Assembly: GCA_951406725.2 (NCBI GenBank)
Contig: OX597819.1
Coordinates: forward strand, 48,298,001-48,362,000
Reading direction: 5' to 3'
DNA: 64,000 nucleotides
Source: Octopus vulgaris
Taxonomy: Eukaryota
Position 1 is the first letter of the stretch; every line of letters begins with the position of its first letter. This document shows positions 31,501 to 40,500 of the stretch, in pieces. Made by a program: the position numbers.

Positions 31501-34500
31501 CATGCCATACTTGGCTCTACACTTATTGAGTCAATTACAAGCTTACCAGATGACTACTGTCAGATGAAATTTTTACTCCTCCTTCATGTCTGTTTTTTCA
31601 TGCCAGCATGTATTGAACAGGAAGTGATTGAAGCATGCTGCCCTTCCTTCCAAACTTAAACCTGATTTTCTGGTAAGAGATAATCATATTCCATAGGTCT
31701 TCAGAAGCATAGATTTTTCAGTCATGAAATCAATACCAGAACTGCTTTGCTCAAATAGTAAGACAAAATATCAACATTTCTATATTTAAGAGATGAGGAA
31801 TTATGTACATTTGGTAGATATTTGTCCTCATCTTCTTTGCTGTTAACACACGGCATATGGTGTAGTAGTTAAAAGCGCGGGCTAACCCCAAGATTCTGAA
31901 TTCTATTCTAAGCAGTGACCTGAACAATAACAATAATAATATCGAAAAATAACTTGGGAATGGGAACCCAAGTTCGAAATTTCCCCAAGACACCTGAAAA
32001 AGGCTGAAGGATATATCAGGACAAACTTACAAGCCCACCAGTCGTTTTTCATACTTTTCTTCTAAGTGTACAAACCCGAAATTACTTCAACTTTGAACTA
32101 CAAATGTTTAAACAGAATATCAACCACATCAATCTGGGAAGGTCTACAAAGGCCATGAAGCCGATTCTCTTGTAATACTAATACAATATGAAGGATTCTG
32201 TAACATCAGACACAGTTGTCGTATACATAGAAACCAGAGTTTTAAACTTTTATGTTGACATGGGTTAGAAAGAATTCGAGGTAGGTCTTCTATAGTCAGA
32301 TTGCCATCCTTGACAGCAAATCGCACCTGTCTTTAAAGTAGTATTTCCCCATCGCCAGACCTGTTTATTACAGACGATCAGAAAGGAACATCACTTAAAT
32401 TGAAGTGTTAGACATGGACAACTGTCATGTGACATCAAGACAAGGAGCCTCCACCACCCACTCACAGGTTTCTTAACAACACAACAATTCATATGGCTTT
32501 CAGATAAGAAACTACAATGTCACAAAAATATCTAGTTCACTTGTATCTCCACTATCACTGCAGTTTGTTAGATTTCGTAAGAAGAAAAAAAGAAGAAAAA
32601 CACCAGAAGTATTCATAGCAACTTATTACATATATAACTTTATTGCTTTACAACTGTCTTGGGCTTCGATTTGAGTTTGAGTTTTCTATCAACCTTCTGC
32701 TTCTTTTTAAGCTTTTTAAATTCTTGAGTAACAATTCTATTTCTCTGAAAAAAGAAAAAAATTTTTTCCATTAATTAAATGGAATAAATTTGACAAATAT
32801 TAAAATACATAGTATTTATTCTAAAAAAGCAAAACAGTGAAATATGAGAAATTTGAAGCACTAACATTTGGCCCATGGCCCTTAGAGAAAGAAATGTATA
32901 AAATAATTATCTTACCGCCTGCTTAGCCCGCATCAGCTTGAATCGGTCAAAATCTGTCATCATTGCTCGCTACAAAGAGAAAAAAAAAAGGACATGACCT
33001 TACACTTCACTTCTTCATATGAAAATTACCAGATTTCTAAATGACTTAATAACCATGTATCATATATAACTAATGATTAACCCTTTCGTTACCAACCCAG
33101 CTGAAACCAGCTCTGGCTCTGTAGTACAAATGTCTTGTTACCTAAATTTAGAATTAAAATCTTCCACCAAAACCTTAGTCACAATTTATGTTCCTAACAC
33201 TAGCTTAATAACAACTAAGTTATTTTGCTAAATTCTTTCTTATATTTAAAATTGAAAGAAACACAGAGCATCTCAAAATATATACAGTAATGAAAGGGTT
33301 AAAGAAAAATTAAAACACTGGCCAATTTGAAAGATAGAAGACTAAATGCATCCTAGCAAAAACTGTTTATAGAGAGAGGGATAAAAACCAATGTTACATC
33401 AACATGATTTTCAAAAAGCCTCATATCCAAATGCTGATTGACATCACTGAGGATCATTTCTGAAAAAATGCACAATTTCAAGACAGTATCTGTTTTGCGC
33501 CACCCTTATTTGTAGACACAAACCCCATATAAAGGAGCCGGAATTTCAAAACCTGTAATTTCAAGATTATCAGTATTTCACACTCCATTAAAGATATTTC
33601 AAATGAATATGACTTCACTAATTAGATTACTCAGGTTTGAAGATCGTCATCACACTGGTTCAGACGGCACTTCCAAATTTCATCACGTTCTAATTAGTTT
33701 TAAATCATATTACAAAATATTTTTAACAGAATCACTTCCATTTCACTACATATGCCAGCAGTTCTCTGTAAACATTAGGTGCAAAATTACAGACGTTCAT
33801 GTGCTTCATATTTCATGTTCTAAAGTTTAACACTAAATTATTATAAGGAAAGCTTTGATAGTAATTATGAAGCAATGGAGATCAAGAAAGGATGGAATGT
33901 AATACTTATAGTGCAAGAGTATTGAAGTATTAATTAGAAATGAAGGAAATACAAACTGATACAAGGGAAGAACCAAGAACATTGTCCTTTCCAATGCTGA
34001 AAATGCCCAAATTAAAATTTGAAAATTTTTGAAAATTCAACTAGGAAGGGGAGAAAATTGTAAAAATGATAGTGTAGAAACTCTAGCAACATTATTTCAT
34101 TCATGAGGTAAGTGTACATACTGGCTTTTTAAATCTTTTTTTTTTTTTGTTAAACATACCATATAGACAAAAGTAATATATTTTTTAACAGAATAACAGG
34201 ATCCATACTTTCATTGACAATGCAAAGTTTTACCCAACAATAATGTGTACCAGATATTACTGAAGTATCATGTCTCAACCTAATATATTTCAATATCAAA
34301 GCTGAACAGATTGGTACCAGCTAAAGCCAAGAACTACAAGGAGGAAACAAATAAAAGTAACTTCATAATAAGTACACCACTTACAAATCTGTGCAATATT
34401 ACTTAGTTACATTTTCGTTGTCAACAACAGTAATCAAGTCAAAGCTATAAAAATAAAAACAAAATACCAAAATGCTAAGAGTATAGACTCAGATTTGAAA

Positions 34501-37500: not shown

Positions 37501-40500
37501 ACTAACACAGGGTGGAAGTTATAGACCAAAAATGGAATTTCAACGCCTAACACTAGATTTACTGATTACTTGTGTAAAAATCTGTTATTTTAATGATAAC
37601 TACCTTTGTTAACACTTTGCAAAATTGTAACCAAAATTAGTTTAAATTACTGTGAAATTTAGTCAGTAAATGTACAAGTTACAAATCAATTCGCTAAATG
37701 GCATAAAACACCCACCAAATTATACGTTTCTGATGGTGATTATTAGACTAAGAATGTTTCAAATTGACACTTATGTCTCATGAAAAAATTTCTTCCTTGT
37801 AGATATACCCACTACTTATCTTTAAAATATTTTTTATAATCATCAATACCTAAGATGCAAAATCTTTTACATTGACATTTCTCCCATTGTTTGTGCCAAT
37901 TATTATACCCTTAAAATTACTTATCAGATATTTCTAGTCTTCAGTATCAAAATTAATGATATCAGTAAAAAAAATTGTCTTCCTTATCAATCAGACCACT
38001 TCCGTATTTTTAACATCATGTTCAATAACTTTGAAGACACTTTTAAATTACAAGAAATCATAGTTAAGCCATATAACAATGTAAACAAAATTATTTGTAG
38101 GTTTTTACCATAACATTCTATGCTAATCCATACATATTATAGCAATGAGAGTGCTATTGTCTTTTTCATTCATTAATTATTGTATGACCATCAGCAACTT
38201 GCATGCACCGGACTGTCAGAAATTTTACCCAACAACAATAATACATAGGCTTTACAATGTGTAGCAGATATTACAGGAGCATCATGTCTCAACTAATCTA
38301 ACATTTCAATATCAAAGCTGAACAGAATGGCACCAACTAAAGTCAGGAACTACACCAAGGAGGAGACCAATAAAACCATCTTTATAATGAGTACCTCAAA
38401 CATCCACAAATCTGTGCAATATTATTTATATTTTTTTTGTTATAGCAATAAAAATTAACATTTTTATTTTTTTAAAAACCCACCAAAACACTAAAATTAG
38501 TTTTCATTTAATCCTCTTCAAGCTATTAACCAAAGATGCCCTTATAGACTCAGATTTGAAAGCATCTTCCTGAGGGTTCAGACGGCACTTCCATTTCTCA
38601 TCATGTTCTAATTGGGTTTATGTATAATTAATTGCTGCATGTGTAGCTAACAGATTATGTTTCATAACCATGTAGTTTTGTCTCCTATTCCATTCTTTTC
38701 TAAATATCTGGAAACTAACACAGGGTGGGAGTTATAGGCCAAAAATGGAATTTCAACGCCTAACACTAGATTTACTGATTACTTGTGTAAAAATCTGTTG
38801 TTTTAATGATACCTACTTTTGTTAACACTTTGCAAAATTGTAACCAAAATTAGTTTAAATTACTGTGAAATTTAGTCAGTAAATGTACAAGTTACATATT
38901 AATTCGCTAAATGGCATAAAAACCCACCAAATTATACGTTTCTGATGGTGATTATTAGACTAAGAATGTTTCAAATTGACACTTATGTTTCATGAAAAAA
39001 TTTCTTCCTTGCAGATATACCCACTACTTATCTTTAAAATATTTTTTATAATCATCAATACCTAAGATGCAAAATCTTTTTCATTAACATTTCTCCCATT
39101 GTTTGTGCCAATTATTATACCCTTAAAATTACTTATCAGATATTTCTAGTCTTCAGTGTCAAAATTAATGATATCAGTAAAAAAAATTGTCTTCCTTATC
39201 AATCAGACCACTTCCGTATTTTTAACATCATGTTCAATAATTTTGAAACAATGAAGACTTAGATTACAGGAAATTATATTTAAGCCAAATAACAATGTAA
39301 ACAAAAATATTTGTAGGTTTTTACTATAATAAAATGTTAAAATAATCCATACATATTAAAGCAATGCGGCTCCTATTGTCTTTCTCTGTCTTCAATTGTT
39401 GAATGCATTTGAATTGTTGTATTAACAACTTAGAAAAATACTGACTTCATTACACACGTGCATTCAGTTTTTGATACTTATTTCCCTATTTATACACGAG
39501 TTTCTACAGTAATGCCTCTATATAAGAGTTACTTTATTCCCAGAGACCATTCATAAAGCAGAGAAATAATTTCCCAGAGTAGCAAAGTTATAAATCGTCG
39601 TTTGTTTCCAAAACAAAATATTTTACCTATAAAATTTATAATACTCATAAATAAATTGCAATAAAACAGTAGAATGTAAAGAATATTCTATGTAAAGGGA
39701 ATAACAAGATCATTCATAAAAAAAAAAAATATATTATAATTATTTTCTGAATAACTTCCAGTCGCATTTAACGCGCACACATGATTGCTGATTCACAAAC
39801 ACTCGTAGATGGACTTGTGGATTTCTTTTTAAAAAATAAGTCTACAGTTGTTTGCTGAGACTTATTTCACTATAAATTTCTCAGTAACACACACAGAAGG
39901 ATTTGTTATGATAGTAGAAACTGTTGCACTTCATTCGAAATTTGAATCTTGTGCTTGAAAAGTAGAACTCGTAAATCAAGTCCTTGTAAAGTGAAGCATT
40001 TTTGTATTGCTAATTACAAAGCATAAGACTAGATTTCAGAGGCAACACTATATTCATATGGTTGGCACTATCATCTAAACCCAGTCATCATGCATGCAAA
40101 ACATAGATATCTTATAACCCAATTTGGATAAACCTCACCACTTTCATCACATCTAAGTATTTTCTAGACTTTCCTCAGCATGCACCACTAATCTGCATGT
40201 CTATACTACTTTAGCTATTTCATTCCATATCAATCAGCTTGACTAGTTTTCAGAAATTATCATAGCATGTTCCATCTAAACACATTAAATCCACATCTTA
40301 TTGCAAACCATTTGATGCCTTTGCCTCACTGAAATAAACACTGAAGCATTTACTAGATTCAATTTAATCAGATGTCGTATATATACAATCACCATTGCTA
40401 TATAGTTTTGGGAATGGAGGTTTATAACTGGAAATAAAATGACTATAAACACTTTGATCCTCTACTTGTACAGAATTACCTACTTTTATTACACACAGAA

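What the first reader, a model, noticed from the sequence alone, without database searches (positions are those of the whole stretch)
33617..39247. Ten box C/D snoRNAs packed in one intron of RPL14
Seen: intron 3 (32970-40727) holds ten C/D cassettes, all sense to the host, in transcript order A4-B6-A3-B5-A2-B4-A1-B3-B2-B1, mostly 490-625 nt apart. An eleventh copy is in intron 2. Boxes and guides are invariant even where flanks differ (B1, B2, B3), which suggests selection. Known: animal intronic snoRNAs are usually one per intron, released by splicing, debranching and exonucleolytic trimming. Two in one intron yields snoRNA-ended lncRNAs (sno-lncRNAs); polycistronic clusters in yeast and plants need RNase III-type cutting. 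Inference: trimming alone would give a ~5.6-kb RNA capped by A4 and B1. So this locus either makes a sno-lncRNA, or needs endonucleolytic release or hidden splicing. I saw no strong GTAAG donor inside the repeat unit.
Basis: partly seen in the sequence, partly recalled or inferred. Interest (0 to 1): 0.9.

Follow-up and report, generated by a model that had tools for sequence, protein, structure and literature searches.

The report
Tandem SNORD49-like snoRNA cluster in octopus RPL14
One intron of an octopus ribosomal-protein gene holds ten tandemly duplicated copies of two related small nucleolar guide RNAs, a clear but not unprecedented case of many such RNAs sharing one intron.

Summary
RPL14 (minus strand; exon 3 is 100% identical to Octopus vulgaris L14) has a 7,758-nt intron 3 (32970-40727). 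A generic C-D'-D pattern finds exactly these 11 (0.19 expected).

The six B copies carry the 12-nt SNORD49 guide but score below Rfam's gathering cut-off. The five A copies are a diverged paralogue of B. Their guide register is changed, they match no Rfam family, and their target is unknown.

Boxes and the B guide core are invariant while the rest of the RNA and the flanks have diverged, which suggests constraint. The D-side "guide" does vary.

No copy lies near a 3' splice site, and seven of eleven are enclosed by 9-20-bp external stems. I found no exon candidate recurring in every spacer and no structured spacers.

Most likely these are SNORD49-family snoRNA genes amplified by tandem duplication. 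Release would be by splicing-position-independent snoRNP assembly, endonucleolytic cuts in the spacers and exonucleolytic trimming, with snoRNA-ended long RNAs as likely by-products.

Multi-snoRNA introns are already known in flies, in plants and for human SNORD49A/B. This is a new member of a known kind. Expression and processing remain untested.

The parts
43931..43960 (-). RPL14 exon 1 (5' limit approximate); ends with the ATG start codon, then donor GTAAGT
   Evidence: CTTCCTTT...GCC ATG|GTAAGT. Exon 2 continues the frame as [12 protein letters not shown]. The 5' end is not mapped.
42704..42808 (-). RPL14 exon 2
   Evidence: acceptor TTCTATAG|G and donor AGA|GTAAGT; weak KOW match, 17.3 bits, below the cut-off of 22.3.
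42515..42611 (-). A5: A-type box C/D cassette in intron 2 (C box 42591-42585, D' 42567-42564, D 42538-42535) with a 17-of-18-bp external stem
   Evidence: MFE -29.7 kcal/mol, z -3.6. It lies 112 nt from the 5' splice site and 1612 nt from the 3' splice site.
40728..40922 (-). RPL14 exon 3
   Evidence: Ribosomal_L14e, 61.9 bits, E 8.3e-17; 100% identity to Octopus vulgaris L14-like; donor AAG|GTTTGT.
32970..40727 (-). RPL14 intron 3 (7,758 nt), host of the ten-cassette array; its donor is the weakest of the gene's four
   Evidence: heuristic donor scores 9.8, 6.1, 4.1 and 9.3 for introns 1-4.
39159..39246 (-). A4 (C box 39231-39225, D' 39206-39203, D 39177-39174)
   Evidence: 12-of-13-bp stem; outer helix extends it to about 19 bp, z -3.0.
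38545..38610 (-). B6 (C 38604-38598, D' 38581-38578, D 38553-38550); SNORD49 guide
   Evidence: SNORD49 20.3 bits against gathering score 37; 4-bp terminal stem; z -0.76.
37947..38034 (-). A3
37332..37397 (-). B5; SNORD49 guide
   Evidence: (20.3 bits).
36726..36813 (-). A2
36149..36214 (-). B4; SNORD49 guide
   Evidence: (20.3 bits).
35540..35627 (-). A1
35050..35129 (-). B3 (C 35118-35112, D 35065-35062); SNORD49 guide; 9-of-10-bp stem
   Evidence: SNORD49 26.5 bits, E 0.011, the best of the six..
34912..34933 (-). Candidate 22-nt cryptic exon or recursive-splice-like site between B3 and B2 (TTTTTTTCTTTCTGATAG|G...AAG|GTAAGG); hypothetical
   Evidence: It is one of only 4 strong acceptor->donor pairs on both strands of the window, and 2 of those 4 start at real RPL14 acceptors. 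The scoring matrix is recalled and heuristic. There is no transcript evidence.
34484..34549 (-). B2; SNORD49 guide; no usable terminal stem in the fold, so possibly a decaying copy
   Evidence: 18.8 bits; z -0.26; box C sequestered in another hairpin.
33617..33698 (-). B1 (C 33686-33680, D' 33663-33660, D 33634-33631); SNORD49 guide; the only B copy with a good C' box (TGATGA); about 20-bp two-part external stem
   Evidence: SNORD49 23.8 bits and plasmodium_snoR28 29.1 bits. (z -3.0). It lies 661 nt upstream of the 3' splice site.
32916..32969 (-). RPL14 exon 4 (RAMMTDFDRFKLMRAKQA)
   Evidence: acceptor TCTCTTTGTAG|C and donor GCG|GTAAGA.
32640..32744 (-). RPL14 exon 5 coding part, up to and including the stop codon; AATAAA overlaps the stop
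   Evidence: It has no Pfam match of its own.

Best explanation
Intron 3 of an Octopus RPL14 gene carries a tandemly amplified cluster of two paralogous box C/D snoRNA genes of the SNORD49 family.

The six B copies keep the SNORD49 antisense element directly upstream of box D'. They are predicted to direct 2'-O-methylation of the large-subunit rRNA cytidine that corresponds to human 28S C4426. The four A copies in intron 3, and a fifth in intron 2, derive from a B-like ancestor. A 2-nt loss next to D' and a 2-nt gain further upstream rewrote the guide, so A now has a different and unknown target.

The array grew by successive tandem duplications. B1 is the oldest copy. B2 and B3 came next, then A arose from a B3-like copy. 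Finally about 3.5 rounds of a 1.2-kb [A+B] unit were added.

All copies are transcribed as part of the RPL14 pre-mRNA. None sits at the usual short distance upstream of a branch point, and most are enclosed by long external stems. snoRNP assembly is therefore most likely independent of splice-site position. Single snoRNAs would be freed from the excised intron, or from unspliced pre-mRNA, by endonucleolytic cuts in the AU-rich spacers of about 0.5 kb. 5'->3' and 3'->5' trimming would then run up to the snoRNP boundaries. Incompletely cut products, meaning RNAs with a snoRNA at each end in steps of about 0.6 kb, are expected as by-products.

Shown by sequence: boxes, guides, stems, strand, gene model, paralogy, and the pattern of conservation. 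Inferred: expression, rRNA target, assembly mode, and endonucleolytic release.
For: Identity.
- 11 of 11 cassettes have box C (RTGATGA in B, ATGATGT in A), D' and D (CTGA). C-to-D length is 55-58 nt.
- 6 of 6 B copies hit SNORD49, and the 12-nt guide GGAAGUGCCGUC is identical to the family consensus (alignments).
- A aligns with B3 beyond the boxes (z 7.6; 0 of 1000 shuffles as good).

Constraint.
- B1 differs from B6 at 18 of 70 columns, but at 0 of the 25 box and guide-core columns (P 7e-5). For B3 the figures are 16 of 70 and 0 of 25 (P 3e-4).
- Cores are 75-97% identical, while flanks at 21-150 nt are at background (z about 0) for A5 vs A4, B1 vs B3/B6/B2 and B2 vs B6.

Tandem origin.
- The 1.2-kb unit recurs at 92-96% identity, with older pieces at 74-89%.

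Assembly mode.
- The cassette nearest a 3' splice site is 661 nt away.
- 7 of 11 cassettes (A1-5, B1, B3) have external stems of 9-20 bp. Folds give z -3.0 to -3.6 for A4, A5 and B1.
- The A stem stays 85% paired across the 5 copies, against 33-56% when the partner strand is slid.
- A review states that long external stems can make box C/D assembly splicing-independent, and that human C/D snoRNAs normally sit about 50 nt upstream of the branch point (PMC5519232, passage).

Precedent for release from shared introns.
- Human SNORD49A and SNORD49B share one intron (PMC9622897).
- An endoribonuclease, XendoU, acts in Xenopus intronic snoRNA maturation (PMC4195833, passages).
Against: - There are no expression data of any kind, so no copy is shown to yield a stable RNA.
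- All B copies score below SNORD49's gathering score (18.8-26.5 bits against 37). The default Rfam scan finds nothing.
- A matches no family. Its best C/D scores are 18.7-23.4 bits, far below the cut-offs, and it scores 12.4 bits against SNORD49.
- No octopus rRNA was available, so no guide-target duplex was tested. A would share only 7 contiguous base pairs with the site inferred for B.
- B2 and B4-6 have only 4-bp terminal stems and lack a C' box. B2's box C is sequestered in the predicted fold. Some copies may be dead.
- The three young units are so alike that their conservation says nothing about selection.
- No compensatory (two-sided) change supports the A stem: 0 of 18 pairs, and the shuffle control was uninformative at 500 of 500.
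- Nothing in the spacers marks a cleavage site.
Confidence: 0.55

Rival explanations
1. The main stable product is a long snoRNA-ended RNA (a sno-lncRNA). After splicing and debranching, exonucleases stop at A4 and B1. The array of about 5.6 kb, or large parts of it, persists as a nuclear RNA decorated with ten snoRNPs. Mature internal snoRNAs are minor products.
For: Two or more snoRNAs in one intron is the stated prerequisite for sno-lncRNAs (PMC4234469; PMC11028025). Both outermost cassettes, A4 and B1, have strong external stems. No cleavage signal or recurrent exon is visible in the spacers. The human SNORD49 pair also gives a snoRNA-ended lncRNA (PMC9622897).
Against: The invariant guide core in diverged internal copies such as B3 argues that internal copies act as guides, which requires their release. 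In flies and at human SNHG29, snoRNAs that share an intron are still matured. Known sno-lncRNAs lie between two snoRNAs, not ten. There are no RNA data.
Confidence: 0.15
2. Much of the array is neutral duplication. Only a few cassettes, such as B1, B3 and perhaps the A copies, are processed into working snoRNAs. The others (B2, B4-6) are poorly assembled or dead copies carried along by recent unequal crossing-over.
For: B2 and B4-6 have 4-bp stems, no C' box and folds no better than shuffles (z -0.26 and -0.76). The young units are 92-96% identical throughout, spacers included, so they are too recent to show selection. A degenerate partial copy lies directly upstream of B1, so copies do decay here.
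Against: B2 is old enough for its flanks to be at background, yet it keeps 51 of 55 core positions and all boxes. Many vertebrate C/D snoRNAs work with stems of 4-5 bp (recalled). B4-6 can form a discontinuous three-part outer helix.
Confidence: 0.17
3. Hidden splicing. Unannotated small non-coding exons split intron 3, so that each snoRNA, or each small group, lies in its own intron, as in mammalian SNORD115/116-type arrays. The resulting transcripts would be alternative isoforms, probably targets of nonsense-mediated decay.
For: One strong acceptor-plus-donor pair (34933-34912, 22 nt) lies 128 nt downstream of B3. It is one of 4 such pairs on both strands of the window, and 2 of those 4 start at real RPL14 acceptors. 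I estimate about 0.09 such pairs expected by chance in this intron. That figure is my own arithmetic from the counts. The intron-3 donor is weak. Host genes of snoRNAs often make decay-prone isoforms (PMC4233243, abstract only).
Against: No candidate exon recurs in all spacers. Weak candidates in the A->B spacer are lost in one unit, and the B->A candidate is present in only one unit. No GTAAG donor lies in the young units. The single strong candidate would split the array only into 8 + 2. The scoring matrix is recalled and heuristic.
Confidence: 0.08
4. Assembly artefact: the repeat number is inflated by mis-assembly of a shorter array or of haplotypes.
For: Tandem repeats of 1.2 kb at 92-99% identity are hard to assemble from short reads.
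Against: The units differ by many substitutions and by indels of 8-41 nt. B1, B2, B3 and A5 have unique flanks. At least B1, B2, B3, one [A+B] unit and A5 cannot be artefacts. Read depth could not be checked.
Confidence: 0.03

Closest known systems
Human SNORD49A/SNORD49B in intron 2 of SNHG29 (Rfam RF00277)
   Same: The 12-nt guide GGAAGUGCCGUC lies directly upstream of D'. The snoRNAs are duplicated paralogues lying in one and the same intron. The predicted target is 28S C4426, and a snoRNA-ended lncRNA comes from the locus (PMC9622897, passages; PMC11028025).
   Different: Human has two copies in a non-coding host gene. Here there are six B and four A copies in one intron of a ribosomal-protein gene. 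The octopus copies score below the Rfam gathering score. The A paralogue has lost the SNORD49 guide register.
Intronic snoRNA gene clusters of Drosophila and rice
   Same: Several snoRNAs, often isoforms made by local duplication, lie in a single intron in the sense orientation of the host (PMC2780460; PMC6619189; PMC11028025).
   Different: The primary papers (Huang 2004 and 2005; Liang 2002) were not held. Copy numbers, spacer lengths and processing data could therefore not be compared. The spacers here are about 0.5 kb. I found no report for a cephalopod.
Mammalian tandem C/D arrays (SNORD115/116, SNORD113/114) and Prader-Willi-region sno-lncRNAs
   Same: These are tandem repeat units that each carry a C/D snoRNA. 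snoRNA-ended long RNAs form when two copies end up in one intron (PMC4234469; PMC11028025).
   Different: In those arrays each unit normally has its own exons, so there is one snoRNA per intron (recalled). Here no recurrent exon candidate was found. Those snoRNAs are orphans in a non-coding imprinted host. Here the B copies carry a classical rRNA guide inside a protein-coding housekeeping gene.
Xenopus U16/U18 in ribosomal-protein gene introns, released with the help of the endoribonuclease XendoU
   Same: These are C/D snoRNAs in an intron of a ribosomal-protein gene. Release involves endonucleolytic cutting rather than exonucleases alone (PMC4195833, passages; titles in the reference list of PMC5282483). 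That the pathway competes with splicing of a poorly spliced intron is recalled, not read. Intron 3 here has the gene's weakest donor.
   Different: In Xenopus there is one snoRNA per intron. No nuclease or cleavage site can be inferred here.
Yeast and plant polycistronic snoRNA clusters processed by RNase III (Rnt1p) and Rat1p
   Same: Several snoRNAs lie on one precursor and need endonucleolytic separation (title in the reference list of PMC2780460).
   Different: Those clusters are mostly independently transcribed, with short spacers that carry RNase III hairpins (recalled). Here the spacers are about 0.5 kb and fold no better than shuffles. The only long helices are the external stems around the cassettes.

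Membership tests
Box C/D snoRNA (class) | Box C (RUGAUGA) near the 5' end and box D (CUGA) near the 3' end | tested here: met
   11 of 11 cassettes have both. B has A/GTGATGA. A has ATGATGT, which varies at the last position.
Box C/D snoRNA (class) | A terminal stem that brings boxes C and D together | tested here: met
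   7 of 11 (A1-5, B1, B3) have 9-18 paired positions next to the boxes. The other 4 (B2, B4-6) have only 4 bp. The helix appears in the minimum-energy folds of A4, A5, B1 and B3.
Box C/D snoRNA (class) | An antisense element of at least 10 nt ending at D or D', complementary to rRNA or snRNA, with the target at the 5th pair | not testable with these tools
   No octopus or other eukaryotic rRNA was available. B carries the SNORD49 consensus guide. A trial on E. coli rRNA was uninformative.
Box C/D snoRNA (class) | A stable RNA of about 60-100 nt bound by fibrillarin, NOP56, NOP58 and SNU13 | not testable with these tools
   No RNA or protein-binding data are available.
SNORD49 (Rfam RF00277) | Score at or above the family's gathering score (37 bits) | tested here: not met
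   B copies score 26.5, 23.8, 20.3, 20.3, 20.3 and 18.8 bits. A4 scores 12.4 bits. There are no hits at the gathering threshold.
SNORD49 (Rfam RF00277) | The family's guide element directly upstream of D' | tested here: met
   In B, 12 of 12 nt (GGAAGUGCCGUC) are identical to the consensus in the cmscan alignments. A does not meet this: the two C residues are missing and the register is shifted.
Intronic snoRNA gene cluster | Two or more snoRNA genes within one intron, in the sense orientation of the host | tested here: met
   Ten cassettes lie between the exon-3 donor (40727) and the exon-4 acceptor (32970), all on the host strand. That no exon is used inside the intron is inferred from sequence only.
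sno-lncRNA locus | A stable intron-derived RNA with a snoRNA at each end | not testable with these tools
   The prerequisite of at least two snoRNAs per intron is met. The RNA itself cannot be observed here.
RNase III-processed polycistronic cluster (yeast/plant type) | Structured processing hairpins in short spacers | tested here: not met
   The spacers are 436-802 nt. Fold z-scores are 0.13 and 0.00. The 25 longest of 40 inverted repeats are AT-rich and 71-92% complementary.
Mammalian-type tandem array with one snoRNA per intron (SNORD115/116) | Exons between successive snoRNA copies | tested here: inconclusive
   A heuristic splice scan finds no candidate recurring in every spacer. It finds one strong isolated candidate. 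There are no transcript data.

The most novel reading that the evidence does not exclude
The array is a lophotrochozoan counterpart of the Prader-Willi-type loci. Stochastic cutting of a ten-snoRNP intron would yield a ladder of abundant snoRNA-ended nuclear RNAs with a function of their own. The A paralogue, kept 97% identical between introns 2 and 3 while its flanks decayed, would be a neofunctionalised guide born from SNORD49 by a 2-nt register shift. It would direct a cephalopod-specific modification on rRNA or on another RNA. The long external stems would be the entry sites for a nuclear double-strand-specific endonuclease, giving animals a splicing-independent, stem-directed release pathway.
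Probability: 0.12. Interest if true: 0.6.

Novelty: new member of a known kind. Interest (0 to 1): 0.35.

Why it matters
If expressed as predicted, the locus is a clean natural test of how animals free several snoRNAs from one intron. It offers ten cassettes at regular spacing of about 0.6 kb. Two paralogues can be told apart by probe, and the copies come with and without long external stems. All of this sits in a highly transcribed ribosomal-protein gene.

The locus also records, step by step, how a conserved rRNA guide (SNORD49) duplicates and how one copy changes its guide register.

It would add snoRNA annotation for cephalopods. Default Rfam thresholds miss every one of these copies, so standard pipelines probably leave them unannotated.

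It does not overturn a rule, because snoRNAs sharing an intron are already known in flies, plants and man.

Tried and rejected
- Rfam at gathering thresholds found nothing in the window. Only the E-value mode exposed the SNORD49 resemblance.
- Tandem Repeats Finder found nothing in 30-43 kb, because its longest period is 500 nt and the unit here is 1.2 kb.
- My first C/D scanner required a contiguous stem of at least 5 bp. It recovered only 2 of the 11 cassettes plus 7 other hits, against 1.15 expected in shuffles. I dropped it in favour of the pattern search.
- Naming A through Rfam on small stretches gave only weak, scattered C/D hits. SNORD79 scored 21.7 bits, TtnuCD7 23.4 and snR56 20.4, all far below their cut-offs.
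- A search for guide targets inside the window found only the trivial antisense of the cassettes themselves.
- Guide complementarity to E. coli 16S, 23S and 5S, tried as a stand-in for conserved rRNA cores, gave runs of at most 10 pairs including G-U. This is uninformative, and no eukaryotic rRNA was within reach.
- Covariation in the A external stem showed no two-sided change among 5 sequences, and the shuffle control was uninformative.
- Spacer structure and inverted repeats gave no signal.
- A splice scan with a recalled consensus matrix gave 49 lax candidate exons and no recurrent one. I kept only the single strong pair. The fourth strong pair in the window (13494-13205, minus strand) has no open frame.
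- Pfam on ten other long ORFs of the window gave 0 families.
- Papers not held: Huang 2005 (by DOI and as PMC1370813), Liang 2002 (PMC135747) and Caffarelli 1996 (PMC450010).
- The Drosophila methylation map (PMC11014333) has no occurrence of SNORD49 or RpL14 in its main text.
The only genome collection on offer holds bacteria and archaea.

Full report
**What is there.** The window has no N runs and is AT-rich, at 29-33% G+C across the region. A ribosomal protein L14 gene lies on the minus strand.

- Exon 3 (40922-40728) matches Pfam Ribosomal_L14e at 61.9 bits, E 8.3e-17.
- Exon 2 gives only a weak KOW match (17.3 bits against a cut-off of 22.3), and exon 5 gives none.
- A search with the exon-3 peptide alone returned 7 proteins at E <= 1e-5 among 20 candidates. 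The best is an Octopus vulgaris 'ribosomal L14-like' protein of 153 aa at 100% identity. Next is O. bimaculoides L14 at 95%. The window is therefore octopus DNA.

I searched the gene exon by exon. The joined, spliced model was not assembled or searched.

Reading the splice sites gives this model:

| Feature | Coordinates | Note |
|---|---|---|
| Exon 1 | ~43960-43931 | ends with ATG|GTAAGT |
| Exon 2 | 42808-42704 | |
| Exon 3 | 40922-40728 | |
| Exon 4 | 32969-32916 | |
| Exon 5 | 32744-32640 | to the stop codon |
| Intron 1 | | 1,122 nt |
| Intron 2 | | 1,781 nt |
| Intron 4 | | 171 nt |

**The cassettes.** Repeat analysis found a six-member family and a five-member family (D6 and D7). Exact searches for their cores place all 11 on the minus strand and none on the plus strand. 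In transcript order they are A5 (in intron 2), then A4, B6, A3, B5, A2, B4, A1, B3, B2 and B1 (in intron 3).

- Each has box C, D' and D, with 55-58 nt from C to D.
- A generic C-D'-D pattern gives exactly these 11 matches in the window. The expectation is 0.19, and 0 of 100 shuffles reached 11. The copies are related by duplication, so this shows a real repeated element rather than eleven independent events.
- A sequence-only covariance model built from the 11 finds them at 61-71 bits, which is by construction. The next best of the 43 rows listed at E <= 10 scores 7.5 bits. There are no further, more diverged copies in the 64 kb.

**What they are.** Rfam at gathering thresholds reports nothing. 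In E-value mode over 29-43 kb there are 14 rows.

- All 6 B copies hit SNORD49 (RF00277) at 26.5, 23.8, 20.3, 20.3, 20.3 and 18.8 bits, against a gathering score of 37.
- B1 also hits Plasmodium snoR28 at 29.1 bits, against 63.
- In the printed alignments the 12 nt GGAAGUGCCGUC upstream of D' are identical to both consensus sequences.
- SNORD49A and SNORD49B are predicted to guide methylation of human 28S C4426 (PMC9622897, passage).

So B is functionally SNORD49-like, although it fails the formal Rfam cut-off.

The A copies match no family. Scans of small stretches give only weak C/D hits of 18.7-23.4 bits, and SNORD49 scores 12.4 bits. Yet A aligns with B beyond the boxes. A4 against B3 gives z 7.6, with 0 of 1000 shuffles as good (alignment). 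A is a paralogue of B.

Relative to B, A lacks the two C residues next to D' and has two extra nt upstream. Its GGAAGUG therefore sits 2 nt closer to D'. By my reading it could form only 7 contiguous pairs with the site inferred for B. Its target is unknown.

No eukaryotic rRNA was within reach. A trial on E. coli rRNA was uninformative.

**Conservation.** Among the six B copies, boxes C, D' and D and the 11-nt core are invariant. The 5 nt between box C and the core vary, and so does the entire D-side half. Only B1 has a good C' box.

The pattern still points to constraint.

- B1 differs from B6 at 18 of 70 columns, but at 0 of the 25 box and core columns (P 7e-5 for random placement).
- B3 differs at 16 of 70 and 0 of 25 (P 3e-4).
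- B2 has too few differences to tell: 4 of 70, P 0.16.
- Cores are 75-97% identical. Flanks at 21-150 nt on either side are at background (z -2.7 to +2.3) for A5 vs A4 or A1, B1 vs B6, B3 or B2, and B2 vs B6. Only the 5' flank of B3 still resembles that of B6 (67%, z 9.5).
- Localised gene conversion could produce the same picture.

The three young units are 92-96% identical along their whole length, spacers included. They say nothing about selection.

**History.** The unit is 1.2 kb and holds one A and one B. Full or partial units lie at 35483-39405. Older pieces lie at 35091-35484 (74%), at 34242-34405 and 34482-34564 (81-89%), and at 33629-33702 (78%).

The array thus seems to have grown toward its 5' end from a B1-like founder. 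A arose from a B3-like copy before the last rounds of duplication.

The units differ by substitutions and by indels of 8-41 nt. B1, B2, B3 and A5 have unique flanks. This argues against a pure assembly artefact, though the number of young units cannot be verified here.

**Features that bear on processing.**

- Position. No cassette is near a 3' splice site. B1 is 661 nt upstream of the intron-3 acceptor and A5 is 1,612 nt from its own. Human C/D snoRNAs sit about 50 nt upstream of the branch point, and assembly generally depends on splicing unless long external stems help folding (PMC5519232, passage).
- External stems. Seven of the eleven cassettes have such stems. A5 has 17 of 18 bp. A1-4 have 12 of 13 bp, extended by an outer helix to about 19 bp. 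B1 has about 20 bp in two parts. B3 has 9 of 10 bp. Folds give z -3.6 for A5, -3.0 for A4, -3.0 for B1 and -1.6 for B3. B4-6 have a 4-bp stem and a possible discontinuous outer helix (z -0.76). B2 has none (z -0.26).
- The A stem across copies. Across the five A copies 85% of cells in the stem are paired, against 33-56% when the partner strand is slid. There are four one-sided (wobble) changes and no two-sided change. Covariation is therefore not demonstrated.
- Spacers. They are 436-570 nt, with one of 802 nt, and fold no better than shuffles (z 0.13 and 0.00). Of 40 inverted repeats, the 25 longest are AT-rich and imperfect.
- Splice signals. A scan with a recalled consensus matrix is a heuristic only. 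It shows that the intron-3 donor (AAG|GTTTGT) is the weakest of the four. Among 49 lax candidate exons, none recurs in every spacer.
- One exception. An acceptor and donor as strong as the real ones flank a 22-nt segment (34933-34912), 128 nt downstream of B3. At those thresholds only 4 such pairs exist on both strands of the window, and 2 of them start at real RPL14 acceptors. If used, it would split the array only into 8 + 2.

**Most likely mechanism.** The cassettes are transcribed within the RPL14 pre-mRNA. The external stems bring boxes C and D together, so that snoRNPs assemble wherever the cassette lies. Endonucleolytic cuts in the long AU-rich spacers then give exonucleases access, and trimming stops at each snoRNP. 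Partially cut, snoRNA-ended RNAs are expected beside the mature forms.

Every step after transcription is inferred.

Precedents:
- Intronic gene clusters are known in rice and Drosophila (PMC2780460), and 'intronic snoRNA clusters' is a recognised category (PMC11028025).
- The human SNORD49 pair shares one intron (PMC9622897).
- XendoU acts in Xenopus snoRNA maturation (PMC4195833).

That yeast Rnt1p cuts stems formed by the flanks of some intronic snoRNAs, and that Xenopus U16 release competes with splicing, are recalled and not read here.

**Rivals.**
- A long sno-lncRNA as the main product (0.15).
- Mostly dead copies, with a few working ones (0.17).
- Hidden exons (0.08).
- Assembly artefact (0.03).

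**Novelty.** Two searches found nothing on this locus or on cephalopod snoRNA loci. In one search, 246 papers held at least 3 of the terms RPL14, snoRNA, intron and SNORD49, and all 15 listed had no occurrence of RPL14. In one search, 42 papers held at least 3 of the octopus, cephalopod and snoRNA terms, and none of the 20 listed dealt with the subject by title or abstract.

Supplementary tables of snoRNA surveys were closed and may hold relevant host-gene lists. The primary fly and rice papers were not held.

The arrangement is a new member of a known kind. Its points of interest are three: the copy number within one intron of a protein-coding gene, the alternation of a conserved guide with a register-shifted paralogue, and the external stems.

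Noticed in passing
window 34912-34933 (minus strand): A strong polypyrimidine acceptor is followed 22 nt later by AAG|GTAAGG, inside intron 3 between B3 and B2. The acceptor is itself followed by GT (TAG|GTAGCT), so the site also looks like a recursive-splice site. It would shift the reading frame if included.
   Followed up: partly
window 40719-40730 (minus strand): The donor of the snoRNA-rich intron 3 (AAG|GTTTGT) is the weakest of the four RPL14 donors by a heuristic score: 4.1, against 6.1-9.8 for the others.
   Followed up: partly
window 33703-33744 (minus strand): A degenerate partial B-like fragment (AAATGGAAGTG followed by a decayed D' region) lies directly upstream of B1. It is probably the relic of a lost copy (5.4 bits).
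   Followed up: partly
window 32918-32967 (minus strand): Coding exon 4 of RPL14 contains AATGATGA ... CTGATG and gives a weak archaeal sR14 C/D hit (18.9 bits against 38). This is most likely chance.
   Followed up: no
window 28369-30600 (minus strand): A non-LTR retrotransposon remnant lies about 2 kb downstream of RPL14. Its reverse-transcriptase domain matches RVT_1 at E 3.2e-32, and the ORFs are broken across frames.
   Followed up: partly
window 54550-57850: A (CCAT)n-rich satellite with higher-order periods of 99-285 nt explains the strong negative GC skew of 54-58 kb.
   Followed up: partly
window 5524-5688 and 8762-8883: Short arrays of a 62-65-nt G+C-rich unit (GGTGC...CACCGGCACA...GCCAG) differ from their AT-rich surroundings and may be fragments of an interspersed repeat.
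   Followed up: no
window 36462-36530, 37639-37707, 38852-38920 (plus strand): Once per repeat unit there is a weak hit to the UnaL2 LINE 3' element (about 20.7 bits against 55, E 7-8), antisense to the host in the A->B spacer. It is probably noise, but it recurs because the unit recurs.
   Followed up: no
window 22929-22989 and 40036-40150 (minus strand): My crude scanner picked up two further stretches with C- and D-box-like motifs and a 5-6-bp stem. Neither has Rfam or model support, and both are probably chance.
   Followed up: no
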